Origin: a virus
Lineage: Duplodnaviria > Heunggongvirae > Uroviricota > Caudoviricetes
IMG/VR virus record: IMGVR_UViG_2529292904_000023
Strand: one strand, 5' to 3'
DNA: 27,930 nt
Shown here: positions 9,359 through 23,753 of the stretch, piece after piece
How the letters are laid out: every line of letters starts with the position of its first letter
Position numbering within the stretch: the first letter of the stretch is position 1
Made by a program: the position numbers and the translations under genes
The notes under the pieces: generated by a model
The model's input: only the letters and a program-made list of their open reading frames with translations
What the model was told of the DNA's origin: nothing
The model's database searches: none

Positions 9359-10051
9359 TTAATTGTGTCGCTTAAGGGTTTGTGACTGACTGATTAAGAC
9401 CTTTCCAAAGACCATAAACCGATGTTCGTTTTCGCTGGTAATTCCCCATTCGCGGTAAATCTGATTATCAGAAATTACCAGCAGTTTATCAGGTATCATT
9501 TGCAGTCGTTTGACGTAAATTTTATCATCAAAACCAAATACATATATACCATCCCCATCAAACTGATTGATACTGATATCAACGAAGATGAGATCTCCTG
9601 GCTCAATGGTTGGACACATACTGTCCCCACGAACGTTGATAACTTTAATGTGATTTGCTGGTCGTCCACCAAACATCGATACAGCATTATCAGTTCTGTA
9701 TTCAATGGCATGAATCACATCAATGACATCACCGCCCTGGATAAGGCCATTTCCCGCACTGGCACTGACATCCAGCATTTCAATACGGAATACATCCTTC
9801 ACCTGCGCAACATCCTCACTAATACTGTTTTTACATACAGTATTACTTTTGAGGTCTGAGGTAAAGAGATCAGCAATATCAACACCTAAGCTCCTGGCAA
9901 TATTACTCAGGGCTTGTTCAGTGAATTGTTTCTGCTTACCTGTTTCGAGGCGCGAGATATTCGCCGCATCCACTCCTATTGCTTCAGCGAGATCGGCGAT
10001 TTTCATGTTCTTCGCCTGGCGAAGTTGTCTGACTCGATTTCCTATGTTCAT
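9359..10051 (-). CDS. cI: CI-type prophage repressor, HTH plus LexA-like S24 autopeptidase
   Basis: N-terminal HTH (QAKNMKIADLAEAIGVDAANISRLETG); Ala-Gly cleavage site (SASAG); S24 motifs VRGDSMCPTI and KRL. Confidence 0.85.
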   Translation of the reverse strand: MNIGNRVRQLRQAKNMKIADLAEAIGVDAANISRLETGKQKQFTEQALSNIARSLGVDIADLFTSDLKSNTVCKNSISEDVAQVKDVFRIEMLDVSASAGNGLIQGGDVIDVIHAIEYRTDNAVSMFGGRPANHIKVINVRGDSMCPTIEPGDLIFVDISINQFDGDGIYVFGFDDKIYVKRLQMIPDKLLVISDNQIYREWGITSENEHRFMVFGKVLISQSQTLKRHN

Positions 10052-10148: not shown

Positions 10149-10409
10149 ATGCAATCACCATTACGGAATGTGCGTAAGGCGCACGGATTTACTTTGCAGC
10201 ATGTTGCTGCGGGCGTTCAGGTCAATCCAGCGACGCTGAGTCGTATTGAAAGACAGGAACAAATTCCATCTATCGATCTTGCAGAACGTCTGGCCAATTT
10301 TTTTAAGGGTGAAATCAGCGAAATGCAGATTCTTTATCCGGCACGTTTTCAATCTAGCCAAAACCAGAATGGGTTTAAACCACAGGAACAGGAGGTAAGC
10401 CGTGGGTAA
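10149..10409 (+). CDS. cro: Cro-like HTH regulator
   Basis: 86 aa, HTH (FTLQHVAAGVQVNPATLSRIERQE); divergent from cI; GGAGG Shine-Dalgarno. Confidence 0.7.
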   Translation: MQSPLRNVRKAHGFTLQHVAAGVQVNPATLSRIERQEQIPSIDLAERLANFFKGEISEMQILYPARFQSSQNQNGFKPQEQEVSRG

Positions 10410-10953
10410 GCATCACTGGAAAGTGGAAAAACAACCTGAGTGGTACGTGAAAGCTGTCAGAAAAACTATCGCGGCGTTGCCGGGAGGTTACGCTGAAGCT
10501 GCTGAGTGGCTGGATGTAACAGAGAACGCTTTATTCAACCGCCTTCGTGCAGATGGCGATCAGATTTTCCCGCTGGGATGGGCAATGATTTTACAGCGCG
10601 CGGCTGGCACTCACTACATTGCGGATGCTGTCGCACAGTCTGCTGGTGGGGTGTTTGTATCGCTTCCTGAAATTGAGGAAGTAGAGAACGCCGATATAAA
10701 CCAGCGCCTGCTGGAAGCCATCGAACAGATCGGGAGTTACTCAAAGCAGATTCGTTCGGCAATCGAAGATGGGGTCGTGGAGCCACACGAGCAGACAGCA
10801 ATTAATGATGAGTTGTATCTGTCAATTTCGAAGCTCCAGGAGCATGCAGCACTGGTCTACAAAATCTTTTGCGCTCCAGAAAAGAGTGACGCCCGCGAGT
10901 GTGCAGCTCCGGGCGTCGTGGCGTTTTGTGTCTGTGGAGAAACTAACGCATGA
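10402..10953 (+). CDS. CII-like regulatory protein (phage 186 CII / CP76-type), tentative
   Basis: 183 aa immediately after cro, GTG start with CAGGAGG Shine-Dalgarno; resemblance to CP76-type regulators is from memory. Confidence 0.4.
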   Translation: MGKHHWKVEKQPEWYVKAVRKTIAALPGGYAEAAEWLDVTENALFNRLRADGDQIFPLGWAMILQRAAGTHYIADAVAQSAGGVFVSLPEIEEVENADINQRLLEAIEQIGSYSKQIRSAIEDGVVEPHEQTAINDELYLSISKLQEHAALVYKIFCAPEKSDARECAAPGVVAFCVCGETNA

Positions 10954-11549
10954 ACAGTTTAACGGCAAATAACCGTTTGTCGCAACAGCTGGTGGTCAGC
11001 GTCGCTGAACACCTGTTGTTACGGCATGAATGCAGATTACCAAATCACCTGGCTGTAAGTAACCACAGAGAACTTTACCTGACTGTGGGGGGCGAGTTGT
11101 GCAGGAACTTAACCGCTGGTTTCGTGACGGAAGAGGGCTTTATGTCCATGTTATTCGTTGGGAGCCAGAAACACAGCGCGTTATCTATCTTCGCAAAGAC
11201 TACCCGCATGAGTGCTTTAGTCCTTTGTGGAAATTCAGGCGTGATTTTGTTGAGTGTGAAGGACCACCAGCATATTGATTCTGCAATTCCGGGACGTTAC
11301 ACTGCTCAGGCACCTTATAAAGCGGGTGCCGGGATTGGCGTCCTGAAATTCGCACATGCGCATAACCGCGCTTCAGCGGTTTTTTTGCGCACGTTTCCTC
11401 ACATCCAAATTATGGTGGGGCGTGCAGGGGCATCGAAAGATGCGCCGGGGTCATGTGCGACCGGTTACGCCAACCCTGTACGTCTCACCACCTCTGTGAT
11501 TGGCGTCCCATGTGGTGAGTTTTCAAAATTCGCACATGAGGATGTCACT

Positions 11550-12095
11550 ATGGCAACCACCCCTACCCAAACTCACCCTAAAATTGATGTTATCCATGGG
11601 AAGGCTGTTACCTCTTCTTTGGCCGTTGCCGAATATTTCTGCAAGCAGCACAAAAACGTTATTCAAAAAATCCAGACGCTTGAGTGCTCTGTTGAATTCA
11701 CTGAGCTGAATTTTCAGCCCAGTGATTACACCGATTGCACAGGCCGCAAACTCCCTTGTTACCAAATCACCCGCGACGGTTTTGCGTTTCTTGCCATGGG
11801 CTTCACGGGTAAACGTGCTGCCCAGTTCAAAGAGGCATACATCAATGCCTTTAACCAGATGGAGAAACAGCTTTCAAATCCCTCTGTACTGAGCGACGTT
11901 GCACATAACGCCAGCGTTCTCTATTCCTACATTTCATCAATTCATCAGGTCTGGCTGCAGCAGCTTTATCCTATGTTGGCAAAAGCCGAATCTCCGCTGG
12001 CTGTTAGCTTGTATGACTATATTAATGATGCTTCGGCACTGGCCTGCCTCATAAATTTGTCGCTGAACCCTTCAGAGGTAAGGGGGCGCAAATGA
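11550..12095 (+). CDS. rha: Rha-family phage regulatory protein
   Basis: KAVTSSLAVAEYFCKQHKNVIQKIQTL...YQITRDGFAFLAMGFTGKRAAQFKEAYINAFNQME; start ATG 11550 with GAGGA Shine-Dalgarno; the 600-nt upstream extension in the track is not accepted as part of this gene. Confidence 0.7.
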   Translation: MATTPTQTHPKIDVIHGKAVTSSLAVAEYFCKQHKNVIQKIQTLECSVEFTELNFQPSDYTDCTGRKLPCYQITRDGFAFLAMGFTGKRAAQFKEAYINAFNQMEKQLSNPSVLSDVAHNASVLYSYISSIHQVWLQQLYPMLAKAESPLAVSLYDYINDASALACLINLSLNPSEVRGRK

Positions 12096-12316
12096 TCCGG
12101 AATATTTTCAAACGGTTTACCAATCAGACTTTCCGTTGTCCTCGTCCGGGTCAGTGGTACACCACACCTGCAGGGCATGTTCTACGTGTTAGCCTGGTTG
12201 ACCGTGAATGTCAGAAGGTGATTTGTGAACCGCTGGGCCGTAATTACCGCGTCAGTATGCCGCTTATAGCCTTTCGCTCCGGAAAAAACATGAAGCATCT
12301 CGGAGGTGCAGCATGA
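12092..12316 (+). CDS. Hypothetical protein, 74 aa
   Basis: ATGA-coupled to both neighbours. Confidence 0.45.
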   Translation: MIRNIFKRFTNQTFRCPRPGQWYTTPAGHVLRVSLVDRECQKVICEPLGRNYRVSMPLIAFRSGKNMKHLGGAA

Positions 12317-13152
12317 GTATGGAGCTGATGGTTAAAGCGATGAAAATTCGAGTGGGTAATCCATTGCGAAAACTGGTTCTGATCAAGCTGGCTGATAATG
12401 CCAGCGATCAGGGTGAGTGCTGGCCCAGCTACCAGCATATTGCTGACCAGTGCGAGATTAGCAAACGTTCTGTGATGAATCATATTGCGGCCCTTTGTGA
12501 GTCCGGGCTGGTAAAAAAAGTCACCCGGAAAGGTGAAAAAGGTAACTCAAGTAATATCTATCTCCTTCATCTTGATGGTGCAGGAGATTCACTAGGGAGT
12601 AGTGCAAATAATTCACTATCTGGTGCAGCAAATTCACCAGGTAGTGCAGGAGTTGCACTAGGTAGTGCAGGAGTTGCACCAGGGGGTAGTGCAGGAGATT
12701 CACCCAGAACCAGTCACTCTTTTGAACCAGTCAAAGAACCAGTCAATGAACCAATAGCTGTTGGTGCATCTGCTGATGAGTCTGTGCGAGTTCGTTCAAA
12801 CCGACCGGAATACTCTCCAGAGTTTGAGCAGGCATGGCTGGCATATCCCAAACGTGCTGGTGGCAATTCAAAATCTGCAGCCTTCAAAGCCTGGAAAGCC
12901 CGTTTGAATGAGGGGGTAAACCCCGAAACCATGCTGGAAGGTGTGAAACGCTACGCGGGCTGGGTATCTGCGATGGGTAACAGCGGCACACAATTTGTGA
13001 AACAGGCTGTCACGTTCTTTGGTCCGGATCGTCATTTCGAAGAATCCTGGGAAGTTCCTGCGGTATCTGTAGCCGGACGTGAGGACCCGTACTTCAAAGC
13101 CAGTTACGGCAACGTGGACTACAGCCAGATCCCGGCAGGATTCAGGGGGTGA
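12313..13152 (+). CDS. Replication initiator-like protein (winged-helix N-terminus, YdaU/DUF1376-like) containing the iteron array
   Basis: N-terminal LVLIKLADNASDQGECWPSYQHIADQCEISKRSVMNHIAALCESGLVKK; internal low-complexity segment encoded by the tandem repeats; position equivalent to lambda O. Confidence 0.55.
   Translation: MSMELMVKAMKIRVGNPLRKLVLIKLADNASDQGECWPSYQHIADQCEISKRSVMNHIAALCESGLVKKVTRKGEKGNSSNIYLLHLDGAGDSLGSSANNSLSGAANSPGSAGVALGSAGVAPGGSAGDSPRTSHSFEPVKEPVNEPIAVGASADESVRVRSNRPEYSPEFEQAWLAYPKRAGGNSKSAAFKAWKARLNEGVNPETMLEGVKRYAGWVSAMGNSGTQFVKQAVTFFGPDRHFEESWEVPAVSVAGREDPYFKASYGNVDYSQIPAGFRG
12577..12705. repeat. Iteron array (about six ~21-bp direct repeats, consensus GGTAGTGCAGGAGTTGCACYA), candidate replication origin
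   Basis: Direct repeats read in the sequence, followed at 12706-12760 by three GAACCAGTCA repeats; lambda-like ori lies inside the initiator gene. Confidence 0.6.
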
Positions 13153-13154
13153 TC

Positions 13155-13643
13155 ATGAGTCTTTTGAATGACGTTCAGAAATTCATTGAAGCCCATCCGG
13201 GGTGTACTTCCGGAGACATTGCGGATGCTTTTGCCGGTTACTCACGGCAGCGCGTTCTGCAGTCAGCAAGCAAGTTACGTCAGAGTGGGCGTGTGGCTCA
13301 CCGTTGTGAAGGAGATACACGCAGACATTTCCCGCGCCTGACTGAGAGAGCGCAGGAACCGGAACCACAACCAGTTCGAGAAACCAGACCTGTGCGCAAT
13401 TTCTATGTCGGCACTAACGATCCACGGGTGATTTTGTGCCTGACCCGCCAGGCGGAAGAACTGGAGTCCAGGGGCTTATACCGTCGTGCTGCAACGGTGT
13501 GGATGGCGGCATTCCGTGAAAGCCACTCCCAGCAAGAGCGAAACAATTTTCTGGCGCGTCGTGAGCGGTGCTTACGGAAAAGCAGCAAGCGCGCTGCATC
13601 GGGTGAAGAGTGGTATCTGTCAGGGAATTACGTGGGGGCTTAA
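13155..13643 (+). CDS. Hypothetical protein with a winged-helix-like N-terminus
   Basis: ATG 13155 with AGGGGGT Shine-Dalgarno; an alternative GTG at 13149 overlaps the upstream stop. Confidence 0.4.
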   Translation: MSLLNDVQKFIEAHPGCTSGDIADAFAGYSRQRVLQSASKLRQSGRVAHRCEGDTRRHFPRLTERAQEPEPQPVRETRPVRNFYVGTNDPRVILCLTRQAEELESRGLYRRAATVWMAAFRESHSQQERNNFLARRERCLRKSSKRAASGEEWYLSGNYVGA

Positions 13644-14296
13644 TGAGTAATAAATATTGCCAGGCGCTGGTGGAACTGCGGAACAAACCAGCCCATGAAC
13701 TGAAGGAAGTGGGCGATCAGTGGCGCACGCCGGACAACATTTTCTGGGGAATTAACACCCTGTTTGGCCCGTTTGTTCTGGATCTGTTCACTGACGGTGA
13801 TAATGCCAAATGTGCCGCGTATTACACGGCGGAAGACAACGCGCTGGCGCATGACTGGTCAGAACGTCTTGCGGAGCTTAAAGGTGCTGCCTTTGGTAAT
13901 CCCCCATACAGCCGCGCCAGTCAGCATGAGGGGCAATACATCACCGGCATGCGTTACATCATGAAGCATGCCAGTGCCATGCGTGATAAAGGCGGGCGCT
14001 ATGTTTTCCTGATTAAAGCTGCCACCAGCGAAGTGTGGTGGCCGGAAGATGCAGATCATATTGCTTTTATTCGCGGGCGTATTGGTTTTGAACTGCCTGT
14101 CTGGTTTATCCCGAAAGACGAGAAGCAGGTACCGACAGGCGCTTTCTTCGCTGGTGCTATTGCTGTTTTCGACAAGACCTGGAAGGGACCGGCAATCAGC
14201 TACATCGGGCGCGATGAACTTGAGGCATGTGGTGAGGCCTTTCTGGCGCAGGTTCGCCAGCAGGCGGAAAAACTGGTCAGGGAGATGGCGGCATGA
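13643..14296 (+). CDS. Phage Dam-like N6-adenine DNA methyltransferase (orphan)
   Basis: Catalytic NPPY motif (FGNPPYSRAS); start ATG 13643 in TAATG overlap; no adjacent restriction gene. Confidence 0.7.
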   Translation: MSNKYCQALVELRNKPAHELKEVGDQWRTPDNIFWGINTLFGPFVLDLFTDGDNAKCAAYYTAEDNALAHDWSERLAELKGAAFGNPPYSRASQHEGQYITGMRYIMKHASAMRDKGGRYVFLIKAATSEVWWPEDADHIAFIRGRIGFELPVWFIPKDEKQVPTGAFFAGAIAVFDKTWKGPAISYIGRDELEACGEAFLAQVRQQAEKLVREMAA

Positions 14297-14619
14297 CGAC
14301 GTTAACTCAATGCCAGCAGCAGGTGCTGGATATGCTGATTTCTTACCAGAAAGAGCGTGGCTTTCCGCCAACCAATCAGGAGGTGGCAACCATGCTGGGA
14401 TATCGTTCAGTGAATGCAGCGGTGGAGCATCTTCGCGCACTGGAGAAAAAAGGCGTCATCACGATAAAGCGTGGTGTGGCCCGGGGGATAACGCTTCATA
14501 CCGCGGTGAAGGACGACGACAGCGAGGCGGTCGGGATTATCCGCTCACTGCTTGCCGGTGAGGAAAACGCCAGGCTGCGTGCAGCCCACTGGTTACATGA
14601 GAGGGGTCTGAAAGTATGA
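14293..14619 (+). CDS. LexA N-terminal DNA-binding-domain-only protein, no S24 peptidase domain
   Basis: LTQCQQQVLDMLISYQKERGFPPTNQEVATMLGYRSVNAAVEHLRALEKKGVITI closely parallels the recalled LexA N-terminus; 108 aa total. Confidence 0.7.
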   Translation: MTTLTQCQQQVLDMLISYQKERGFPPTNQEVATMLGYRSVNAAVEHLRALEKKGVITIKRGVARGITLHTAVKDDDSEAVGIIRSLLAGEENARLRAAHWLHERGLKV

Positions 14620-15005
14620 AGCTGATTCTGCCTTTCCCGCCCAGCGTGAACACGTACTGGCGACACCCCAACAAAGGGGCGTTTGCAGGTAAGAGCCTGA
14701 TAAGCGCGGCGGGGCGAAAATTCCAGAGCGCAGCGTGTGCAGCCATCATTGAGCAGTTACGTCGTTTGCCGAAACCAACGTCGGCACCAGCTTCAGTGGA
14801 GATCGTGTTGTTTCCTCCGGATAACCGGCTTCGCGATCTGGACAACTATAACAAGGCGCTGTTTGACGCCCTGACCCACGCGGGTGTGTGGGTGGACGAC
14901 AGCCAGGTGAAAAGAATGCTGGTGGAGTGGGGGCCGGTTATCCCGGAAGGGAAGGTCGAAATCACTATCAGTAAGTACGAGAAAACGGCGGGTGCAGCCG
15001 CCTGA
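14616..15005 (+). CDS. rusA: RusA Holliday-junction resolvase
   Basis: PPSVNTYWRH, RLRDLDNYNKALFDALTHAGVWVDDSQV; about 129 aa. Confidence 0.85.
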   Translation: MKLILPFPPSVNTYWRHPNKGAFAGKSLISAAGRKFQSAACAAIIEQLRRLPKPTSAPASVEIVLFPPDNRLRDLDNYNKALFDALTHAGVWVDDSQVKRMLVEWGPVIPEGKVEITISKYEKTAGAAA

Positions 15006-15024: not shown

Positions 15025-15822
15025 ATGAGTAATCTGATGGTTATTGATGGTATTGAAGTTCGTCGTGATGCTTATGGTCGTTACAGCCTGAACGATCTGC
15101 ACAGGGCTGCCGGTTCTCTGGATAAGCATAAGCCTGCATTCTGGCTCCGCAATGAGCAAACTGAACGTTTAATAAGCGAGTTGCAGATTTGCAACTCGGT
15201 CAATATAGCGCCAGTAAATGTCATTCGAGGTGGAAATAACCAGGGAACGTATGTCTGCAAGGAACTGGTGTATGCCTATGCAATGTGGATCAGCCCGTCA
15301 TTCCATCTGAAGGTGATCCGTACTTTCGATATGGTAACCAGCGCACCGGAAAAATTATCAGGACAGGCTGCTGACAAGATGCAGGCTGGCGTGATCCTGC
15401 TGGACTTTATGCGTCGGGAGTTAAACCTGTCTAACTCATCTGTGCTTGGTGCCTGTCAGAAACTCCAGGAGGCTGTTGGCTTACCGAATCTGGCACCGCG
15501 CTATGCCATTGATGCTCCTGCTGACGCGCCTGATGGCTCAAGTCGCCCCACGCTGTCGCTGAGTGCACTGCTGAAACAGTATGGTATCCGCCTGACGGCT
15601 AATCAGGCATATCACCAGATGGTGAAGCTGGGGATCGTCGAGCAGCGCGAACGATACAGCCGTACCGCGATTAACAACATCAAAAAATTCTGGTCGCTGA
15701 CGGCGAAAGGCTGCATGTTCGGCAAGAACATCACCAGTCCTGCAAATCCGCGCGAGACGCAGCCGCACTTCTTCGAATCCCGATTCCCTGAGCTGTTAAA
15801 GCTGCTCGATACCGTTCATTGA
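15025..15822 (+). CDS. KilA-N domain protein with an uncharacterised C-terminal domain
   Basis: N-terminal IDGIEVRRDAYGRYSLNDLHRAAG...AFWLRNEQTERLI...YVCKELVYAYAMWISPSFHLKVI; AGGAGA Shine-Dalgarno. Confidence 0.6.
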   Translation: MSNLMVIDGIEVRRDAYGRYSLNDLHRAAGSLDKHKPAFWLRNEQTERLISELQICNSVNIAPVNVIRGGNNQGTYVCKELVYAYAMWISPSFHLKVIRTFDMVTSAPEKLSGQAADKMQAGVILLDFMRRELNLSNSSVLGACQKLQEAVGLPNLAPRYAIDAPADAPDGSSRPTLSLSALLKQYGIRLTANQAYHQMVKLGIVEQRERYSRTAINNIKKFWSLTAKGCMFGKNITSPANPRETQPHFFESRFPELLKLLDTVH

Positions 15823-15823
15823 G

Positions 15824-16819
15824 GTGACCGTGAGAGCACTACTGACCCCTGAAATTGCCCCGCGTATGGGGATCGTATTGTTCAGACCAGGTTCAGAGCT
15901 GATGCCCCTGTTTATGCAGGGGCGTGTCCTGCTGGAGCCTGAGCCGGAACGTTATTCATCTTTCGCCAGTGGTGCCGTTCCGGCGGCATCACAACCGCTG
16001 GCGGATGATCCTGCCGTTCGGGCCGTGTTCCGCAATGATGCAGTGATCCGTCGTGCTGGTGGCGTGGAATGTCTTGAACGCTGGTTACTTCGTGAAAAAG
16101 GTTGCCAGTGGCCTCATTCCGACTGGCACAGCGAGAACATGACCACAATGCGACACTCGCCGGGCGCAATCCGTCTGTGCTGGCACTGCGATAACCAGCT
16201 GCGCGATCAGTTCACGGAACGGCTGGAATCAATGGCAACGGATAACTGTACCCGCTGGGTGTTGTCTGTTGTGCGTCGGGATCTCGGTTTTGATGACAGT
16301 CACGTTGTGACAATGCCGGAACTGTGCTGGTGGCTGATTCGTAATGACCTGGCGGATGCCTTACCGGAAAGTGCAGCCCGTAAGGCACTGAGATTACCGA
16401 AGCCTGTTGTGCCGTCTGTCACCCGGGAAAGTGACCTTGTGCCTTCGGTTCCTGCCACCAGCATCATCCAGGATAAAGCGAAAAAGGTGCTGGCGCTGAA
16501 AGTGGATCCGGAGTCGCCGGAGTCTTTTATGTTACGCCCAAAACGTCGCCGCTGGGTTAATGAAAAGTACACGCGCTGGGTTAAGACACAGCCGTGTGCA
16601 TGTTGTGGAAAGCCCGCTGATGATCCCCACCACCTGATAGGCCACGGTCAGTGTGGAATGGGTACAAAAGCGCATGACCTTTTTGTGTTGCCTTTGTGCA
16701 GAAAGCATCACGACGAGCTGCATGCGGATACCGTGGCATTTGAAGAGAAGTATGGCTCTCAGCTGGAGCTGATATTTCGTTTTATCGATCGTGCGCTGGC
16801 AATTGGCGTACTGGCGTAA
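15824..16819 (+). CDS. DUF968-like protein with a C-terminal HNH/zinc-finger-like motif
   Basis: C-terminal CACCGKPADDPHHLIGHG...CRKHHDELH; GTG start at 15824 or 15830. Confidence 0.55.
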   Translation: MTVRALLTPEIAPRMGIVLFRPGSELMPLFMQGRVLLEPEPERYSSFASGAVPAASQPLADDPAVRAVFRNDAVIRRAGGVECLERWLLREKGCQWPHSDWHSENMTTMRHSPGAIRLCWHCDNQLRDQFTERLESMATDNCTRWVLSVVRRDLGFDDSHVVTMPELCWWLIRNDLADALPESAARKALRLPKPVVPSVTRESDLVPSVPATSIIQDKAKKVLALKVDPESPESFMLRPKRRRWVNEKYTRWVKTQPCACCGKPADDPHHLIGHGQCGMGTKAHDLFVLPLCRKHHDELHADTVAFEEKYGSQLELIFRFIDRALAIGVLA

Positions 16820-16832
16820 GTGGAGAACGAGC

Positions 16833-17585
16833 ATGAACCTTGAAGCCTTACCGAAATATTACTCCCCGAAATCTCCAAAACTGAGCGATGACGCACCGGC
16901 GACAGGCTCTGGTGGTTTAACAATTACGGATGTGATGGCTGCGCAGGGGATGGTGCAGTCAAAAGCACCGCTTGGGTTTGCTTTATTCCTGGCAAAAGTT
17001 GGTGTTCAGGATCCTCAGTTTGCGATTGAAGGTCTGCTCAATTACGCGATGGCACTGGATAACCCGACATTGAATAAATTGAGTGAAGAAACCCGGCTAC
17101 AGATCATTCCTTACCTTGTGAATTTTGCCTTTGCTGATTATTCCAGGTCTGCGGCAAGTAAGGCTCGCTGTGAGCATTGTGCTGGTACTGGATTTCATAA
17201 TGTATTGCGCGAGGTGGTGAAACACTCCAGAAGCGGGGAATCTGTTATTAAGGAAGAGTGGGTGAAGGAACTATGTCAGCATTGTCATGGTAAGGGAGAA
17301 GTCAGCACAGCATGCAGAGGGTGCAAGGGTAAAGGTATTGTCCTGGATGAAAAAAGAACCCGGCTTCATGGCACACCTGTTTATAAGGTTTGTGGGCGTT
17401 GCAATGGAAACCGGTTTAGCAGTTTACCAACCACACTGGCGCGGCTTCATGTCCAGAAGCTGGTACCAGACCTGACGGATTATCAGTGGTACAAAGGATA
17501 TGCAGATGTCATTGATAAACTGGTTACAAAGTGCTGGCAGGAAGAAGCATATGCAGAGATACAATTGAGAAAGGTGACAAGATAA
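16833..17585 (+). CDS. Q: Late-gene antiterminator Q (phage 82 / QuuQ-like type)
   Basis: 250 aa directly upstream of the pR'/tR' candidate and the tRNA island; four Cys-x2-Cys pairs (CEHC, CQHC, CRGC, CGRC); GGAGA Shine-Dalgarno. Confidence 0.6.
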   Translation: MNLEALPKYYSPKSPKLSDDAPATGSGGLTITDVMAAQGMVQSKAPLGFALFLAKVGVQDPQFAIEGLLNYAMALDNPTLNKLSEETRLQIIPYLVNFAFADYSRSAASKARCEHCAGTGFHNVLREVVKHSRSGESVIKEEWVKELCQHCHGKGEVSTACRGCKGKGIVLDEKRTRLHGTPVYKVCGRCNGNRFSSLPTTLARLHVQKLVPDLTDYQWYKGYADVIDKLVTKCWQEEAYAEIQLRKVTR

Positions 17586-17616
17586 ATGGTTTTCGCCGAA
17601 GATGACGACATGATGC

Positions 17617-17645
17617 TTGCATTTTTCAAAAAATATGGATAAGAT
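17617..17645 (+). promoter_or_regulatory. Candidate late promoter pR' (-35 TTGCAT, 17-bp spacer, -10 TAAGAT)
   Basis: Located just 3' of Q and about 50 nt upstream of a strong terminator, as in lambdoid pR'/tR'. Confidence 0.4.
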
Positions 17646-17691
17646 TTTCCCAACGATGGGCTTTGTATGTCTACCGTTGATAAGATTTAAG

Positions 17692-17717
17692 AACCCGCCG
17701 ATGCGCGGGTTTTTTTG
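17692..17717 (+). terminator. tR'-like rho-independent terminator
   Basis: CCCGC-cgatgc-GCGGG followed by TTTTTTT. Confidence 0.65.
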
Positions 17718-17896
17718 TACCCAGAATCCTGTGAGCTATACGGAAAGTACACAGAAAGGAAGGTGCGACCACAATTAATAACAAAATCTTAAAAATTGCA
17801 CATGGCACTATTAGTTTTCTAAATATTGTGTATTTTTTGTATTGCAGGATGACCCTGTAACGAAGTTTGCGTAACAGCATTTTGCTCTACGAGTTT

Positions 17897-17926
17897 GCCA
17901 GCCTCCCCCAGTGGCTGGCTTTTTTA
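17897..17926 (+). terminator. Second rho-independent terminator
   Basis: GCCAGCC-loop-GGCTGGC followed by TTTTTTAT. Confidence 0.6.
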
Positions 17927-17948
17927 TGTCTGTAGCGTCAAAGCAGCA

Positions 17949-18047
17949 ATGTCGCTGGGGCGTCGTGCAATTGGCGTTGAGCTGGAGACTGAACGTTTTG
18001 AGCAGACGGTCAGGGAAGTTCAGGATTTAGTCAGTCAGAACGGATGA
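17949..18047 (+). pseudogene. 3'-terminal remnant of a DNA methyltransferase gene (last ~33 codons)
   Basis: Reading frame gives ...SVKAAMSLGRRAIGVELETERFEQTVREVQDLVSQNG-stop, resembling the C-terminal motif region of beta-class N6/N4 methyltransferases; upstream part replaced by the terminator. Confidence 0.4.
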
Positions 18048-18087
18048 TATTGCAGGATTAGTTACGTACCGTTATTATCCTGCGCCC

Positions 18088-18163
18088 GGCCCTTTAGCTC
18101 AGTGGTGAGAGCGAGCGACTCATAATCGCCAGGTCGCTGGTTCAAATCCAGCAAGGGCCACCA
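18088..18163 (+). tRNA. tRNA with CAU anticodon (Ile2/Met type, ileZ-like)
   Basis: Cloverleaf folded by hand: 7-bp acceptor stem, GCTC/GAGC D-stem, anticodon loop CTCATAA, T-loop TTCAAAT, encoded CCA. Confidence 0.85.
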
Positions 18164-18172
18164 TATCACATA

Positions 18173-18249
18173 CCGCCATTAGCTCATCGGGATAGAGCGT
18201 CAGCCTTCGAAGCTGGCTGTGCGGGGTTCAAGTCCCCGATGGCGGTCCA
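18173..18249 (+). tRNA. tRNA-Arg (anticodon UCG)
   Basis: Acceptor CCGCCAT/ATGGCGG, anticodon loop CTTCGAA, T-arm CGGGG-TTCAAGT-CCCCG, encoded CCA. Confidence 0.8.
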
Positions 18250-18262
18250 TTATCAGCATCAT

Positions 18263-18339
18263 GCGTTGTTAGCTCAGCCGGACAGAGCAATTGCCTTCTA
18301 AGCAATCGGTCACTGGTTCGAATCCAGTACAACGCGCCA
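18263..18339 (+). tRNA. tRNA-Arg (anticodon UCU)
   Basis: Acceptor GCGTTGT/ACAACGC, anticodon loop CTTCTAA, T-loop TTCGAAT, encoded CCA. Confidence 0.85.
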
Positions 18340-18626
18340 CACCACACTTATCTGCCCTGACTCTCTTTTGCGGGCTTTTTATTACAGGAAAGACACCGGA
18401 CAGTGAAATGTTAAATGCCTCACAATTCAGGTAGTCGACTGTTGCCTGACATGCTGAGCGTTTGTTAAAAAAATCCTGCATGATGAATCCCCCTGGGCGG
18501 CGGGGCATAATGACAGATGTTTGGTTGCGTATTGTATAGGCAAGTTGCGGATTCTGTCTGGTCATTGCAGAATTCACCGGGAGGCACCCGGCATCATGCT
18601 GTATACAGAGATTAGGCATATATCCA

Positions 18627-18652
18627 GGCTCCTCATCGCAGGAGCCTTTTTA
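18627..18652 (+). terminator. Rho-independent terminator
   Basis: GGCTCCT-catcgc-AGGAGCC followed by TTTTT. Confidence 0.6.
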
Positions 18653-18656
18653 CATG

Positions 18657-18682
18657 CAAAAAAAGCCCGAGTAGGTTCGGGC
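18657..18682 (-). terminator. Convergent minus-strand terminator
   Basis: A-run then GCCCGA-gtaggt-TCGGGC; reads as hairpin plus T-run on the minus strand. Confidence 0.5.
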
Positions 18683-18864
18683 AACAGCATGAGATACTTG
18701 CATTGTCATTTTTATCGTGTGGATTTTAACCAGGGTTTATCAGGCTGCGCAACTGCGTGGCCTTTTTTCATTTCTTGGGCTGTAGTCCCCGTGTGTCATT
18801 CAGGCTTCCGGACTACAGCCCACTCCATATCTGATTTAATACACTATCCCGGCCGGGAGGAATA

Positions 18865-20718
18865 ATGACATTTAAACATTATGATGTTGTCAGGGCGGCG
18901 TCGCCGTCAGACCTTGCGGAAAAGCTGACACACAAACTGAAAGAGGGCTGGCAGCCGTTTGGTAGTCCGGTGGCCATAACCCCTTATACCCTGATGCAGG
19001 CGATTACAGCAGAAGGTGATGTGATGGTCAGTGGTGCAACTGAGCCGGATTGGTACTACGTCATCGTACTGGCCGGGCAGTCCAATGCCATGGCTTACGG
19101 TGAAGGGCTTCCGCTTCCGGATTCATACGATGCGCCCCATCCGCGCATTAAGCAACTGGCCCGTCGTAACACAGTGACTCCCGGTGGTGAAGTATGCGTA
19201 TTTAACGACATCATTCCTGCTGACCATTGTCTGCATGATGTTCAGGATATGAGTACGATTAACCATCCCCGGGCTGACCTGAGCAAAGGGCAGTACGGCT
19301 GTGTCGGACAGGGCTTACATATTGCCAAAAAACTGCTTCCGTATATCCCTAATAATGCGGGGATCCTGCTGGTACCATGCTGTCGTGGTGGTTCGGCATT
19401 CACCCAGGGCACGGAGGGGACATTCAGCGAGTCCACGGGGGCCAGTCAGGATTCGGCTCGCTGGGGAGTGGGTAAGCCGTTATATCAGGATCTGCTTTTC
19501 CGCACGAAGGCAGCATTGCAGAAAAACCCGAAAAACGTTTTGCTGGCGATATGCTGGATGCAGGGGGAATTCGATATGACGAATGCCAGTTACGCCCAGC
19601 AGCCAGCAGCATTTCTTGCAATGGTACAGCAGTTCCGTGCTGACCTTGCCGGGCTGGCGGCGCAGTGTCACGGTGGAAGTCCGGCATCAGTCCCCTGGAT
19701 TTGTGGCGACACGACATACGCGTGGAAACAAGAACACGGTACGCAATATGAAGTGGTATATGGTGCATATAAAGGTAAAGAATCCCAGCAGATTTATTTT
19801 GTTCCCTTTATGACCGATGGTAGCGGAGTTAATACACCGACAAACAACCCGTCAGAAGATCCTGATATTGTCGGGTCTGGTTATTACGGTTCGGCATCCC
19901 GAACGAACAAAAACTGGGTATCATCAAATCGCCCGACGCATTTCAGCTCATGGGCGCGTCGTGGCATTATTCCCGATCGTATGGCAACCGCTATTCTGAA
20001 CGCAGCCGGGCGCACCTCAGCCTTCATCAGTGGTAAGGCACCGGAAATCAAACCCTCGCCCGGCGGCGACACGCCATCGGGTCCGTCTACAGATACGTCC
20101 GTTCGCACAATCTCCCTGCTGCCGACAGCCGGAGAGGCTGCTGCGCAGGGCTGGACCATTAAGGACGGCGGAATTCAGTTGTCGGGTGGTGTATTTAAGA
20201 TCGCCAAGCAGAGCAATAAAACCTGGTCCCTGACGCGCCCGGTGGATGACGCAGTCTCCCTGCTGACACGGGGTGGCAGACTGAGCTGTAAGTTTCGACT
20301 GTCAGGCGCACTGACCAACAATCAGTTCGGTCTGGGAATTTATCTGTATACCGATGTAGCGTTACCTGACGTCGTGGCGATGACGGGTACCGGTAACCCG
20401 TTCCTGATGTCGTTCTTCACCCAGACCACAGACGGCAAACTGAATCTGATGCATCACAAGAAAGCAGGAAACACAAAGTTGGGCGAGTTCGGGAATTACA
20501 GTAACGACTGGCAGACGCTGGAGCTGGTGTTCACCGCCGGCAGTGCCACGGTTACTCCGAAACTGAATGGAGTGGCTGGCCCGGCATTCCAGGTCATAAA
20601 AGACAGTCTGACACTGGGGCTGAATGCGCTGACGCTGACGGATATTACCAAAAATGCAGCGTATGGCGTTGAGATAGAAAGTCTGGTGCTGGAGATAAAT
20701 GCACCGGCATCATCATAA
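18865..20718 (+). CDS. nanS-p: NanS-p-type sialate O-acetylesterase (SGNH/DUF303 esterase with C-terminal extension)
   Basis: VIVLAGQSNAMAYGEG catalytic-serine motif; 617 aa; occupies the position downstream of the tRNA island where Stx phages carry the homolog; GGGAGGA Shine-Dalgarno. Confidence 0.8.
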   Translation: MTFKHYDVVRAASPSDLAEKLTHKLKEGWQPFGSPVAITPYTLMQAITAEGDVMVSGATEPDWYYVIVLAGQSNAMAYGEGLPLPDSYDAPHPRIKQLARRNTVTPGGEVCVFNDIIPADHCLHDVQDMSTINHPRADLSKGQYGCVGQGLHIAKKLLPYIPNNAGILLVPCCRGGSAFTQGTEGTFSESTGASQDSARWGVGKPLYQDLLFRTKAALQKNPKNVLLAICWMQGEFDMTNASYAQQPAAFLAMVQQFRADLAGLAAQCHGGSPASVPWICGDTTYAWKQEHGTQYEVVYGAYKGKESQQIYFVPFMTDGSGVNTPTNNPSEDPDIVGSGYYGSASRTNKNWVSSNRPTHFSSWARRGIIPDRMATAILNAAGRTSAFISGKAPEIKPSPGGDTPSGPSTDTSVRTISLLPTAGEAAAQGWTIKDGGIQLSGGVFKIAKQSNKTWSLTRPVDDAVSLLTRGGRLSCKFRLSGALTNNQFGLGIYLYTDVALPDVVAMTGTGNPFLMSFFTQTTDGKLNLMHHKKAGNTKLGEFGNYSNDWQTLELVFTAGSATVTPKLNGVAGPAFQVIKDSLTLGLNALTLTDITKNAAYGVEIESLVLEINAPASS

Positions 20719-20868
20719 AAAGTGAGCCAGTCAAATGGAAGGTATCGTTAAACTCACCGGTAGTGTCAGTGGGTCGTCTGAGATGCCTGCATGAGTTATC
20801 AGAGCCATCAGTACTTAACTGGTGGCTTTTTTTATTGTTGTCAGCTTCCGGATAACGGGAGACGGGGT

Positions 20869-21084
20869 ATGTACCAGATGGAAAAAATCACAACAGGTGT
20901 GTCATACACCACGTCAGCGGTGGGAACGGGCTACTGGTTCCTGCAGTTGCTGGACAGGGTTTCCCCGTCTCAGTGGGCGGCAATAGGCGTGCTGGGAAGT
21001 CTGCTGTTTGGGCTGCTGACATATCTGACTAACCTGTATTTCAAAATCAGAGAGGACCGGCGTAAGGCCGCCCGGGGAGAGTGA
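20869..21084 (+). CDS. S: Phage-21-type class II holin (pinholin) with a dual start
   Basis: 71 aa, MYQMEKITT... with Met1/Met4 dual-start motif; two TM segments; C-terminal [14 protein letters not shown]; GGGAGA Shine-Dalgarno. Confidence 0.85.
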
Positions 21085-21087
21085 ATA

Positions 21088-21645
21088 ATGAACCATGAAG
21101 AAATGAATCAGCGCTTCAGTCGCCTGGAAAATGAAATTGCTGAACTGAATAAAAAACTGTCGACGCTGATGCATTCTGAAGATGAAAAAAAACGCCGCGA
21201 TGAGCAGTTTGCTGCGTTTGACGATTATTGTCGGAAAGTGATGAGCAAAAATCTCGCAGAGTGTTTCAGTATTCATAATGATAATTTCAGTGAGCTGGAA
21301 TGGGAGTGTAACCGGCCATCCTTTGTTGTATCCGGTGATGCCGGGAAAATAACCATCTCAGAAAATGGGAAAGTAACACCTCCATCGCACCAGCACAGTG
21401 AGGAGCTCATTGAATTTGCCATTGATTACCTGAAGAACAATAAAAAGCAGGGGCTGATGAAGCGCGTTGGCCGTTGCATGGGATATCTTCAGGTAGCCGC
21501 TGAGATTGAAGCGCTGGCCAGTGGTGCTGATAAGGATGCAATTGTGCGGGAGGCTCTTCTTCGTGATTTTAATACTCCACCCTTTAAAAAAGTGCCGGCT
21601 TACTGGCTTCATCCGGGGCTGACTTATCTTAAAGTGCGTATTTAG
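21088..21645 (+). CDS. Hypothetical 185-aa protein inserted between holin and endolysin
   Basis: ORF 3 nt after the holin stop; N-terminal heptad-like segment (LENEIAELNKKLSTL); no TM segment or recognised motif. Confidence 0.5.
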   Translation: MNHEEMNQRFSRLENEIAELNKKLSTLMHSEDEKKRRDEQFAAFDDYCRKVMSKNLAECFSIHNDNFSELEWECNRPSFVVSGDAGKITISENGKVTPPSHQHSEELIEFAIDYLKNNKKQGLMKRVGRCMGYLQVAAEIEALASGADKDAIVREALLRDFNTPPFKKVPAYWLHPGLTYLKVRI

Positions 21646-21681
21646 TGGGCCAGGGACAGCGGCTGAATATTTAATATATCC

Positions 21682-22215
21682 ATGAACACCAAAATCAAAT
21701 ACGGCCTGTCGGCTGCCGTTCTGGCGCTGATTGCCGCTGGTGCGTCTGCGCCTGACATTCTCGACCAGTTTCTGGATGAAAAGGAAGGCAATCACACCAC
21801 GGCATACCGTGATGGTGCAGGTATCTGGACCATCTGCCGTGGTGCCATCATGGTGGATGGCAAACCTGTCGTTCCGGGCATGAAGTTGTCGAAGGAAAAA
21901 TGCGACCAGGTTAACGCCATTGAGCGTGATAAAGCGCTGGCGTGGGTGGAGAAAAACATCAAAGTGCCATTGAGCGAACCCCAGAAAGCGGGGATCGCGT
22001 CATTCTGTCCGTACAACATTGGTCCCGGTAAGTGTTTCCCGTCGACGTTTTATAAACGAATTAATGCAGGTGATCGCAGGGGAGCGTGTGAGGCGATTCG
22101 CTGGTGGATTAAGGACGGTGGCAGAGACTGCCGTATTCGTTCAAACAACTGCTACGGTCAGGTATCCCGTCGTGACCAGGAGAGCGCGCTGGCGTGCTGG
22201 GGTATCGACAGATAA
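21682..22215 (+). CDS. R: SAR endolysin (T4-lysozyme-like)
   Basis: Weakly hydrophobic Gly/Ala-rich N-terminus (GLSAAVLALIAAGASA); catalytic E-x8-D-x5-T pattern (EGNHTTAYRDGAGIWTICRG). Confidence 0.8.
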   Translation: MNTKIKYGLSAAVLALIAAGASAPDILDQFLDEKEGNHTTAYRDGAGIWTICRGAIMVDGKPVVPGMKLSKEKCDQVNAIERDKALAWVEKNIKVPLSEPQKAGIASFCPYNIGPGKCFPSTFYKRINAGDRRGACEAIRWWIKDGGRDCRIRSNNCYGQVSRRDQESALACWGIDR

Positions 22216-22329
22216 GCAGAATATTTTGCTGAAAAATAAAGCATGGCCACGCGGGCGGATAACATGAAATCCTGCGAACTGGCGAAACGTAAGTGAATAA
22301 AAGTAAAAACCCCGTTTGTTGGCACCAAG

Positions 22330-22364
22330 CGGGGTTTTGTGTTTCCTGACTCCGGAAAAGTCAA
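22330..22364 (+). terminator. Rho-independent terminator between R and Rz
   Basis: 9-bp stem (CCCCGTTTG / CAAGCGGGG, one G-U pair) followed by TTTTGTGTTT. Confidence 0.6.
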
Positions 22365-22374
22365 AGGAGAAAGT

Positions 22375-22512
22375 GTGTTTGATTTTAGCAAACTGATTCG
22401 GGAGATTCGAGTGATGGCTGAAAAATTATCCACCTGGAAGTTCATTCTTATCTGGCTGGTGTTTGTGATTATGGCCTCCGGTTATTTCATCGGTCAGATA
22501 CGCTGGTGGTGA
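22375..22512 (+). CDS. Candidate micro-ORF, 45 aa (32 aa from the internal ATG at 22414), single hydrophobic segment
   Basis: Not in the track; AAAGGAGAAA Shine-Dalgarno before GTG 22375; hydrophobic core [20 protein letters not shown]; stop 1 nt before the Rz start. Confidence 0.3.
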
Positions 22513-22513
22513 A

Positions 22514-22978: not shown

Positions 22979-23285
22979 AAACCGGCCAAGGATAATCCGC
23001 TGAAGATTCGCCGGTGGCTAAAGTGTGCCAAGAGTTCAATTTACGCAATTACTCCAGTCGATGCTATGCACCGTCTTTGTGAAGTCAATGGATACCTGAT
23101 TTATTTCTGTGCGCTGTATCGTCGCTGTACTCTTGCATTAATTATGACTGTAGCCTGACGGGGAACTCCTTCTGCACAAGTGTGGGGGAATAATCAAAAA
23201 CGATGCACACCGGGGTTACCGGGTACACATATTTCATCATGCCAGCGAGTCCGGTTCTGGCACGGAAGAAACCGGACGTTATGAT

Positions 23286-23711: not shown

Positions 23712-23753
23712 GTGATATGAGGGGGCGTAGTCTGCACGATTATCTAAATTGCT

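What the first reader, a model, noticed from the sequence alone, without database searches (positions are those of the whole stretch)
13643..14619. Orphan Dam-like methyltransferase coupled to a LexA DNA-binding-domain-only protein
The methyltransferase has the NPPY catalytic motif and no partner restriction gene, consistent with anti-restriction or epigenetic roles. The next gene (ATGA-coupled) encodes a 108-aa protein that parallels the LexA N-terminal domain but lacks the S24 peptidase, so it could occupy SOS boxes without being cleavable and alter induction behaviour.
Basis: partly seen in the sequence, partly recalled or inferred. Interest (0 to 1): 0.45.

Follow-up and report, generated by a model that had tools for sequence, protein, structure and literature searches.

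The report
Phage methylase next to LexA-like DNA-binder
Both genes are real, but they are a very common, already annotated part of the early operon of E. coli lambda-like prophages and are only loosely linked; the small LexA-like protein has never been tested, keeps LexA's DNA-reading residues, and could act as an uncleavable stand-in for LexA.

Summary
13643-14296 encodes a 217-aa phage N6-adenine methyltransferase (PF05869/TIGR01712, NPPY at aa 86-89). 14293-14619 encodes a 108-aa protein ("LexN") that is a complete LexA winged-helix DNA-binding domain plus a conserved two-helix tail, with no S24 peptidase. The ATGA overlap is present.

The context is the delayed-early operon of an stx-less lambdoid prophage of the mEp460/SfV/Stx2a_1447 type. 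The pair occurs in 1661 of 5426 complete E. coli genomes and is already annotated there.

The methylase and LexN are not a functional unit:
- The methylase is an exact presence/absence cassette, missing in 27 of 80 near-identical loci.
- Other phages have unrelated methylases, or nothing, in that slot.
- The methylase family is in 364 phage records, LexN in 61.
- RusA immediately follows LexN in 160 of 162 loci sampled.

LexN keeps LexA's recognition-helix and wing residues and is under purifying selection. The best reading, unproven, is a RecA-insensitive binder of SOS-type operators made only during lytic growth. The only characterised analogue, GIL01 gp6, changed specificity and activates late genes.

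Separately, I found a strong SOS box inside the prophage's cI gene. It is conserved in five diverged cI lineages, with or without LexN.

The parts
13149..13643 (+). PerC-family (YfdN-like) gene. Its stop overlaps the methyltransferase start (TAATG); in methylase-less relatives the same stop overlaps the LexN start.
   Evidence: PF06069 E 2.2e-9; phrog_1324; junction sequences.
13643..14296 (+). Orphan phage N6-adenine DNA methyltransferase (217 aa), NPPY at nt 13898-13909. It is an exact presence/absence cassette bounded by ATGA at both ends.
   Evidence: PF05869 E 9.7e-46; TIGR01712 256.5 bits vs cut-off 97; NPPY aa 86-89; absent in 27 of 80 loci with a precise junction.
14293..14619 (+). LexN: a 108-aa stand-alone LexA-type winged-helix protein. 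The wHTH is aa 1-69 (nt 14293-14499). The family-specific C-terminal helices are aa 75-87 and 93-103 (nt 14515-14601). There is no cleavage site and no S24 peptidase.
   Evidence: PF01726 E 2.9e-19; 1lea/3jso matches; AF2 model pLDDT 77; phrog_362 full length, E 1.4e-59; C-tail conserved down to 39-48% identity; in the P0131-like LexN clade dN/dS is 0.20 for the wHTH and 0.19 for the tail.
14616..15005 (+). RusA-family Holliday-junction resolvase. Its start overlaps the LexN stop (ATGA). It is the usual downstream neighbour of LexN.
   Evidence: PF05866 E 1.1e-14; immediately downstream in 80 of 80 near-identical loci and in 80 of 82 loci of the 44-48%-identical subfamilies.
15824..16819 (+). 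DUF968/HNH-like gene. Context only; it is not a restriction partner of the methylase.
   Evidence: PF06147 E 3.8e-80, PF16784 weak; retained in loci without the methylase.
9823..9842 (.). Strong LexA (SOS) box TACTGTTTTTACATACAGTA inside the cI coding sequence. It is the only strong SOS-type site in the window and a candidate cis target for host LexA and, hypothetically, for LexN.
   Evidence: Pattern scan; heuristic PWM 25.8 bits, against 12.6-27.1 for known sites recalled from memory; arms conserved in 5 of 5 cI lineages of 69-76% DNA identity.
9359..10051 (-). cI-like prophage repressor (HTH + S24 peptidase) that carries the intragenic SOS box in its linker (about codons 70-77).
   Evidence: PF00717 E 5.9e-19 and HTH families; annotated cI in mEp460, PhiR and Stx2a phages.

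Best explanation
The region is two independent genes of the delayed-early (nin-like) right operon of a lambdoid prophage. They are transcribed from the early rightward promoter only after infection or induction.

(1) The methyltransferase is a facultative, orphan phage N6-adenine DNA methyltransferase. It most likely methylates replicating phage and host DNA, protecting it from restriction and keeping fast-replicating DNA methylated. This role is inferred from family membership only.

(2) LexN is a captured gammaproteobacterial LexA DNA-binding domain fused to a short helical hairpin that probably replaces the S24 domain as the dimerisation element. It keeps LexA's recognition-helix residues (S39, N41, A42, E45, H46, K53) and wing (G61, R64, G65, I66), and it has no cleavage site. 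It is therefore most likely a RecA-insensitive protein that binds CTGT-N8-ACAG (SOS-type) operators during lytic growth, when host LexA has been destroyed. Candidate targets are host SOS promoters and the phage's own intragenic SOS box in cI, which it would re-close.

Shown here: gene structure, domain identity, fold, conservation, purifying selection, operon position, and the lack of obligate linkage to the methylase. Inferred: dimerisation, DNA target and physiological effect.
For: - Domain and fold.
- Recognition helix: LexN RSVNAAVEHLRALEKKG against LexA RSPNAAEEHLKALARKG. Wing: LexN KRGVARGI against LexA VSGASRGI. The same positions are invariant or nearly invariant across LexN subfamilies and LexA. 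Three diverged subfamilies read SPNAAAEHLKAL, one residue away from LexA.
- LexA R52/K53 and Asn41 are reported as DNA-binding residues (PMC4807011; PMC5999292).
- The wHTH is 50% identical to E. coli LexA and up to 58% identical to a full-length 205-aa LexA-sized protein, which fits a recent capture.
- The C-terminal hairpin is conserved down to about 40% identity and is under purifying selection (dN/dS 0.19). Weaker structural matches over about 100 columns include BlaI/MecI-type (Rv1846c, MecI) and MarR-type (MepR) chains. That those regulators dimerise through their helical regions is my own knowledge.
- No promoter-like or terminator-like site on the coding strand between 12000 and 16200; ATGA/TAATG overlaps on both sides.
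- One strong SOS box in the window.
- Independence from the methylase.
- From my own knowledge, not retrievable here: in the LexA-DNA crystal structures the two wings share one minor groove, which fixes half-site spacing; and LexA NTDs fused to heterologous dimerisation domains are efficient SOS-box repressors.
Against: - There are no binding, dimerisation or expression data for any member of this family. Searches found none.
- The only characterised phage LexA-DBD-only protein, GIL01 gp6, evolved a different palindrome and is an activator.
- Some LexN subfamilies, all from Enterobacterales, have substitutions at reading positions (A42 to T or G; E45 to G, L, I or D). This is unexpected if all of them must read the same invariant host box.
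- The window's own protein has C7 where LexA and most relatives have R7.
- The cI-internal SOS box also occurs in phages without LexN, so it does not need LexN.
- CTGT-Nk-ACAG sites at other spacings are not enriched in the window.
Confidence: 0.4

Rival explanations
1. LexN is a phage-specific transcription factor like GIL01 gp6. It has drifted to a phage-encoded operator and activates or represses phage genes (for example timing of late or nin genes), not host SOS genes.
For: gp6 is a PF01726-only protein that binds a GaCACA..TGTGtC-type site and activates the late promoter. Stand-alone LexA-DBD proteins are widespread in phages. Some LexN subfamilies vary at recognition positions 42-45.
Against: Most LexN subfamilies, including the one in the window, keep LexA's reading residues and wing almost unchanged. 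No candidate phage-specific palindrome travels with the gene: its flanks are mosaic and it has no promoter of its own. In this lambdoid phage, late genes are presumably controlled by the Q antiterminator encoded at 16791-17585.
Confidence: 0.25
2. LexN is an accessory DNA-binding factor for recombination or replication. It would work with the RusA resolvase that is translationally coupled to it, or act as a general architectural nin-region protein, rather than as a transcription factor.
For: RusA follows LexN with an overlapping start in 80 of 80 and 80 of 82 loci across subfamilies that are only 44-48% identical. In the Buttiauxella loci LexN is again directly followed by a RusA gene.
Against: This RusA type occurs without LexN (ST64B: methylase then RusA). 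In the P0137 subfamily a 67-aa ORF separates the two genes, and one locus has no RusA. Overlapping starts are the rule for every gene in this operon. The conserved residues are those LexA uses for sequence-specific reading.
Confidence: 0.12
3. LexN is the target-recognition or specificity subunit of the adjacent methyltransferase. This is the first reader's 'coupled' unit, by analogy with the Stx-phage MT-A70 enzyme that needs the winged-helix protein PNB-2.
For: M.EcoPA8orf6770P forms a 1:1 complex with an adjacent wHTH protein that directs its substrate choice. Methyltransferases of three families recur just upstream of LexN.
Against: The methylase is absent from 27 of 80 near-identical LexN loci and from SfIV and Ayreon. 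PF05869 methylases are in 364 phage records against 61 for LexN, mostly in phages with no LexN. Methylases sit directly after the replication gene in related phages that lack LexN (phiNP, Flotzy, Klebsiella phage 1 LV-2017). The published enzyme belongs to a different family (DPPW, MT-A70) and sits at a different locus.
Confidence: 0.05
4. LexN is a decaying remnant of a captured lexA gene and has no function.
For: It lacks two thirds of LexA, and many truncated or frameshifted copies exist in databases.
Against: The full-length 104-108-aa form is conserved in thousands of sequences, in functional cultured phages such as SfV, SfII, SfIV, mEp460, cdtI and Ayreon, and across subfamilies down to about 40% identity with a conserved non-LexA tail. 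dN/dS is about 0.2 in both halves in the P0131-like clade.
Confidence: 0.03

Closest known systems
E. coli LexA repressor, N-terminal domain (PDB 1lea, 3jso)
   Same: Same winged-helix fold (rmsd 1.2 A over 68 residues, 50% identity). The recognition-helix and wing residues are shared.
   Different: No linker cleavage site and no S24 peptidase/dimerisation domain. Instead there is a 40-residue tail with two helices that LexA lacks. It scores below the TIGR00498 cut-off. It is phage-encoded and lies inside a lytic operon.
Bacillus phage GIL01 gp6 (PMC6182141)
   Same: A phage-encoded truncated LexA homologue consisting of the PF01726 domain only, expressed from an early operon.
   Different: gp6 is 66 aa with no C-terminal helices and derives from a Bacillus LexA. 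It shows no BLASTP similarity to LexN. Its recognition helix has diverged (K38), it binds a non-SOS palindrome, and it activates late transcription. LexN keeps LexA's reading residues, and its function is untested.
Phage N-6-adenine methyltransferases, TIGR01712 / PF05869
   Same: Full-length profile match above the curated cut-off, with an NPPY motif. It is orphan and phage-borne. A 97%-identical DNA segment is annotated dam, orf42 (the LexN equivalent), orf43 in phage SfV. [quoted passage not shown]
   Different: Nothing distinguishes this copy. Its target sequence was not determined here.
M.EcoPA8orf6770P-PNB-2 holoenzyme of Stx phages (PMC10810198)
   Same: A prophage methyltransferase next to a winged-helix protein.
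   Different: That enzyme is MT-A70 (DPPW). It lies in a separate unit co-transcribed with its partner gene gp6 from a promoter induced near stationary phase, at about 3.3 kb in that paper's coordinates. It needs its partner and prefers 16S rRNA. Here the methylase is PF05869 (NPPY), and the two genes are not co-inherited.

Membership tests
Phage N-6-adenine methyltransferase (TIGR01712 / PF05869) | Whole-protein HMM score above the curated cut-off | tested here: met
   TIGR01712 256.5 bits vs 97.05; PF05869 156 bits vs 28.1.
Phage N-6-adenine methyltransferase (TIGR01712 / PF05869) | Catalytic (D/N)PPY motif IV | tested here: met
   GNPPYS at aa 85-90, nt 13898-13909 for NPPY.
Phage N-6-adenine methyltransferase (TIGR01712 / PF05869) | m6A methylation of DNA at a defined target | not testable with these tools
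   Needs a methylome or restriction-protection assay.
Type II restriction-modification system | Cognate restriction endonuclease gene next to the methylase | tested here: not met
   The neighbours are PerC-like, LexN, RusA, KilA-N, DUF968 and Q. The HNH-like DUF968 gene persists without the methylase.
LexA repressor (TIGR00498) | N-terminal LexA winged-helix DNA-binding domain | tested here: met
   PF01726 E 2.9e-19 over the full profile; 3jso rmsd 1.2 A.
LexA repressor (TIGR00498) | Ala-Gly cleavage site and S24 Ser/Lys peptidase domain | tested here: not met
   No PF00717 hit. The protein ends at residue 108. The alignment to LexA stops at about residue 90.
LexA repressor (TIGR00498) | Equivalog HMM score above the cut-off | tested here: not met
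   70.8 bits vs 110.95, with model positions 1-91 of 203 matched.
Stand-alone phage LexA-DBD proteins (GIL01 gp6 type) | Phage-encoded protein consisting of PF01726 without a peptidase domain | tested here: met
   BFVD lists many 70-150-aa viral LexA-DBD proteins.
Stand-alone phage LexA-DBD proteins (GIL01 gp6 type) | Sequence relatedness to gp6 beyond the shared Pfam domain | tested here: not met
   BLASTP finds no alignment. This points to an independent capture from a gammaproteobacterial LexA.
Stand-alone phage LexA-DBD proteins (GIL01 gp6 type) | Binds a phage promoter palindrome distinct from the SOS box and activates transcription | not testable with these tools
   Needs EMSA, ChIP or reporter assays.
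phrog_362 (lambdoid 'transcriptional repressor', about 106 aa) | Full-length profile match including the C-terminal helices | tested here: met
   E 1.4e-59, residues 1-108 against profile positions 1-106 of 106.
Methyltransferase plus winged-helix specificity-subunit holoenzyme (M.EcoPA8orf6770P-PNB-2 type) | MT-A70 catalytic subunit with DPPW | tested here: not met
   PF05869 with NPPY.
Methyltransferase plus winged-helix specificity-subunit holoenzyme (M.EcoPA8orf6770P-PNB-2 type) | Co-inheritance of the methylase and the wHTH partner | tested here: not met
   27 of 80 loci lack the methylase. There are 364 phage records with the methylase family and 61 with LexN.

The most novel reading that the evidence does not exclude
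LexN is an uncleavable surrogate for LexA. Once RecA has destroyed host LexA and the prophage is committed to lysis, LexN dimerises through its C-terminal hairpin and re-occupies SOS operators. These would include the conserved SOS box buried in the phage's own cI gene. The effect would be to shut the SOS regulon down again in a cell that is still damaged, silencing LexA-controlled antirepressors of rival prophages, colicins and mutagenic polymerases. Because 1661 of 5426 complete E. coli genomes hold a place covering at least 80% of the methylase+LexN segment, and others hold LexN without the methylase, this would be a widespread phage override of the SOS response.
Probability: 0.25. Interest if true: 0.65.

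Novelty: new member of a known kind. Interest (0 to 1): 0.33.

Why it matters
The methylase is routine. LexN could matter if the favoured mechanism holds, for three reasons:
- A RecA-proof protein with LexA's DNA-reading surface would be made in induced cells in a large share of E. coli strains, including Stx2a/Stx2c, SfV/SfII/SfIV and cdtI converting phages.
- It could change SOS output, the induction of co-resident prophages (and so toxin release), and mutagenesis after antibiotics.
- It would be a second, independent case of phages capturing only the DNA-binding half of LexA, after GIL01 gp6.

The intragenic SOS box in cI suggests that host LexA acts directly on the immunity region of this phage group. 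Tools that scan only promoter regions (PSOSP) would miss such a site.

Tried and rejected
- **Direct literature on LexN.** Five searches found no functional study of the lambdoid protein. Only GIL01 gp6 turned up.
- **The NAR 2023 'prophage methyltransferase plus winged-helix partner' paper.** It looked like a direct hit but concerns an MT-A70 enzyme at another locus. I kept it as an analogy only.
- **LexA-DNA structure paper.** It is not held. The wing-wing spacing argument therefore rests on my own knowledge.
- **Phage orphan-methylase review.** Not held.
- **Genome-contig search with family alignments.** It failed twice for lack of a conserved stretch. The single scan, with P0137, showed that the LexN relatives it recovered (Klebsiella, Enterobacter, Buttiauxella) are Enterobacterales; the other hits appear to be genuine LexA genes of Vibrionaceae and others. 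A test for covariation with hosts that use a different SOS motif was therefore not possible.
- **Alternative half-site spacings.** A scan for CTGT-Nk-ACAG with k = 0-24 found no enrichment.
- **CTG-N10-CAG inside the LexN gene (14397).** It matches only 10 of 20 consensus positions and was rejected as chance and codon bias.
- **SfV's annotated 'dam promoter'.** The hexamers are poor (TTGCGC / TACGGA), and the window has a T-to-G change in the -35. I rejected it as evidence for expression in the lysogen.
- **Association between LexN and SOS boxes.** Strong boxes occur in LexN-positive and LexN-negative phages alike.
Full report
**What is there**

The window is a lambdoid prophage segment. Its genes are:

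| Coordinates | Strand | Gene |
|---|---|---|
| 2521-8822 | mostly - | early-left genes |
| 9359-10051 | - | S24-type cI-like repressor |
| 10149-10409 | + | cro |
| 10402-10953 | + | CII/YmfL-like |
| 10950-12095 | + | Rha/Ash |
| 12313-13152 | + | O-like replication gene |
| 13149-13643 | + | PerC-family gene |
| 13643-14296 | + | methyltransferase |
| 14293-14619 | + | 108-aa LexA-like gene ("LexN") |
| 14616-15005 | + | RusA |
| 15025-15822 | + | KilA-N |
| 15824-16819 | + | DUF968/HNH |
| 16791-17585 | + | Q antiterminator |
| 18088-18339 | + | three tRNAs |
| 18865-20718 | + | nanS-p-like esterase |
| 20791-26437 | mostly + | lysis genes and terminase (DUF1398 gene 23286-23711 on -) |

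The 2-kb stretch around the finding is 97-99% identical to Stx2a_1447/WGPS2, mEp460, SfV, 1720a-02 and the Stx2c phages. The segment 13643-14619 is found at 80% coverage or more in 1661 of 5426 complete E. coli genomes, and in part in 2655. RefSeq names the two genes 'phage N-6-adenine-methyltransferase' and 'LexA family transcriptional regulator'. The finding is therefore a common, already annotated gene pair.

**Check of the observation**

- The methyltransferase ATG at 13643 overlaps the PerC stop (TAATG). Its stop overlaps the next ATG (ATGA at 14293-14296). The 108-aa ORF ends in a second ATGA with RusA.
- The methyltransferase matches PF05869 (E 9.7e-46) and the NCBIfam equivalog TIGR01712 (256.5 bits against a cut-off of 97). 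It carries NPPY at residues 86-89. No solved structure matches it by sequence.
- The 108-aa protein matches the whole LexA_DNA_bind profile (PF01726, E 2.9e-19) and the E. coli LexA NTD (1lea, E 7e-16).
- An AlphaFold2 model (pLDDT 77) shows a three-helix winged HTH plus two further helices at residues 75-87 and 93-103. It superposes on the LexA-DNA complex 3jso with rmsd 1.2 A over 68 residues at 50% identity.
- There is no S24 peptidase. The protein fails the LexA equivalog cut-off (70.8 against 110.95 bits). It is not a LexA.

**Are the two genes a unit? No.**

- In 80 IMG/VR loci with a near-identical LexN, RusA follows immediately in all 80. The methyltransferase is present in only 53. 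In 26 of the other 27 the PerC gene abuts LexN directly.
- The junctions show an exact cassette. With the methylase the sequence reads ...GGGGGCTTAATGAGTAA...(651 nt)...GGCGGCATGACGACG. Without it, it reads ...GGGGGCTTAATGACGACG.
- The cultured phages SfIV and Ayreon have LexN without the methylase.
- LexN subfamilies that are 44-48% identical are still followed by RusA (80 of 82 loci). Upstream of them lies an MT-A70 methylase plus a 79-aa ORF, a PF05869 plus a C5-cytosine methylase, or the replication gene itself.
- In a third subfamily a 67-aa ORF separates LexN from a RusA-like gene, or RusA is missing.
- Conversely, PF05869 methylases occur in 364 phage records, most without LexN, which is in 61. 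In ST64B the methylase, with a different C-terminal extension, directly precedes RusA.
- Related phages without LexN also carry methylases right after the replication gene.

So the position after the replication genes is a methylase slot. LexN is a separate gene of fixed position in the nin-like region. The ATGA overlap is simply how this operon is packed.

**What LexN looks like**

- It belongs to phrog_362, a 106-position profile that it matches end to end (E 1.4e-59).
- A full-library search found 4563 relatives. Nearly all share only the wHTH, but a set of 104-135-aa proteins aligns over the whole length at 39-52% identity.
- Across these proteins and LexA, the following are invariant or nearly so: S39, N41, H46, L50, K53, G54, G61, R64, G65 and I66.
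- The window's recognition helix reads RSVNAAVEHLRALEKKG, against LexA's RSPNAAEEHLKALARKG. Three diverged subfamilies read SPNAAAEHLKAL.
- Papers held here name Asn41 and R52/K53 as DNA-contacting residues of LexA.
- The tail (consensus ...EAV..IR.LLAGEENAR.RA..WL..RG...) is absent from LexA but conserved in the family.
- In 72 distinct sequences of one subfamily (the P0131-like clade, not the window's own), the median dN/dS is 0.20 for the wHTH and 0.19 for the tail. Both halves are functional there.
- The gene has no promoter-like or terminator-like site of its own, and its composition is continuous with the operon. The promoter annotated for dam in SfV is poor, and in the window its -35 carries a T-to-G change. 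LexN should therefore be a delayed-early protein, made only after the prophage repressor has gone.

**Most likely mechanism**

LexN is a captured gammaproteobacterial LexA DNA-binding domain. It has exchanged the cleavable S24 dimerisation domain for a short helical hairpin.

Two points rest on my own knowledge. First, isolated LexA NTDs bind weakly but become good repressors when given any dimerisation module. Second, in the LexA-DNA crystal structures the two wings meet in one minor groove, which fixes the half-site spacing. I could not retrieve that paper.

LexN keeps both the reading residues and the wing. The most economical prediction is that it binds CTGT-N8-ACAG operators and cannot be removed by RecA. 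It would then re-close SOS operators during lytic growth. I put this at about 0.4.

Arguments against:
- The only characterised analogue, GIL01 gp6, is also PF01726-only but is unrelated by BLASTP. It changed specificity and activates the late promoter.
- Several LexN subfamilies, all from Enterobacterales, vary at positions 42-45.
- No experimental data exist.

Rivals are a gp6-like phage-specific regulator (0.25), a recombination accessory linked to RusA (0.12), a methylase specificity subunit by analogy with the MT-A70/PNB-2 holoenzyme of Stx phages (0.05), and a dead remnant (0.03).

**The methyltransferase**

It is an ordinary member of a large phage family and has no nuclease partner. 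The HNH-like DUF968 gene downstream persists in methylase-less loci. GATC is mildly under-represented in the window: 86 observed against 109-122 expected. From my own knowledge, characterised relatives (the T1, HP1 and VT-2 Dam enzymes) methylate GATC. [quoted passage not shown] Target and activity cannot be settled computationally.

**An unexpected SOS box**

While scanning for possible LexN targets I found TACTGTTTTTACATACAGTA at 9823-9842. It lies inside the coding sequence of the cI-like repressor, in the linker between the HTH and S24 domains.
- A TACTGT-N8-ACAGTA match is expected about 0.002 times per window.
- With a heuristic matrix built from SOS boxes I recalled from memory, it scores 25.8 bits. 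The training sites span 12.6-27.1 bits. It is the only site above 10 bits in the window.
- The CTGT/ACAG arms are kept in five cI lineages whose DNA is only 69-76% identical: this window, ST64B, Klebsiella phage 1 LV-2017, phiNP and Flotzy. The spacer and the neighbouring linker codons vary.
- Four of those five phages have no LexN. The box is therefore presumably a host-LexA site and does not depend on LexN, though it would be an obvious target for it.
- On the cI-sense strand, TTTAC(C/A), then 17 nt, then TACTGT is kept in all five. This could be a promoter occluded by LexA. I found no conserved start codon downstream.
- I found no description of this site. PSOSP scans promoter regions only.
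- SfV and Ayreon have another cI allele and do carry LexN. They have a different strong box at the start of a PF01555 methylase gene between Q and the holin.

**Verdict**

The 'coupling' to the methylase is an accident of gene order, and the region is ordinary and already annotated.

LexN is an uncharacterised member of a known kind, the stand-alone phage LexA DNA-binding domains. It is worth a simple EMSA and a lexA(Def) reporter test because of how common it is.

Noticed in passing
window 9823-9842 (inside cI, 9359-10051, minus strand); also L002:8468, L003:7857, L175:7364, L176:7362: A strong LexA/SOS box (TACTGTTTTTACATACAGTA) lies inside the coding sequence of the S24-type prophage repressor. 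Its arms are conserved in five cI lineages of only 69-76% DNA identity, with or without the LexA-like gene. A conserved TTTAC(C/A)-17 nt-TACTGT on the cI-sense strand could be a LexA-occluded internal promoter. The function is unknown, and I found no description in the literature searched.
   Followed up: partly
window 13643-14296; junctions at 13640-13646 and 14290-14296: The methyltransferase ORF is an exact presence/absence cassette bounded by ATGA at both ends. Methylase-less relatives read ...GGGGGCTTAATGACGACG, joining the PerC stop directly to the LexN start.
   Followed up: yes
L088:4088-5004; L164:1275-4006; L182:3309-4016: The slot just upstream of LexN holds unrelated methyltransferases in different phages: MT-A70 plus a conserved 79-85-aa ORF of unknown function, or PF05869 with a C-terminal extension plus a 626-aa C5-cytosine methylase. 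The small ORF that travels with the MT-A70 gene was not examined.
   Followed up: partly
L177 (SfV) 34170-34189; L178 (Ayreon) 41489-41508: A strong SOS box (TACTGTAAAAATAAACAGTG) sits 8 nt inside the start of a PF01555 N6/N4 DNA methylase gene between Q and the holin. This suggests LexA control of a late-region methylase. A relative of the window is annotated with only a fragment of that gene.
   Followed up: no
window 16791-20718: Q, three tRNAs (Met-CAT, Arg-TCG, Arg-TCT at 18088-18339) and a nanS-p-like SASA esterase (18865-20718) follow one another as in Stx2 phages, but no stx ORFs lie between them. The prophage is an stx-less relative of Stx2a/Stx2c phages.
   Followed up: partly
proteins P0152, P0153, P0156, P0160, P0164: Public metagenomes contain proteins of about 160 aa with two tandem LexA_DNA_bind stretches and no peptidase domain. 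[quoted passage not shown]
   Followed up: no
L002 (ST64B) 12275-13168; L164:1275-2129: Some PF05869 methylases carry a conserved extra C-terminal domain of about 80 aa (...QLWLERM...) and then directly precede RusA, occupying the position LexN has here. The extension has no Pfam match.
   Followed up: no
window 10950-12095: The 381-aa ORF combines Ash (aa 117-211) and Rha (aa 221-306) domains behind an N-terminal stretch of about 115 aa with no match. The listed start may be too far upstream.
   Followed up: no
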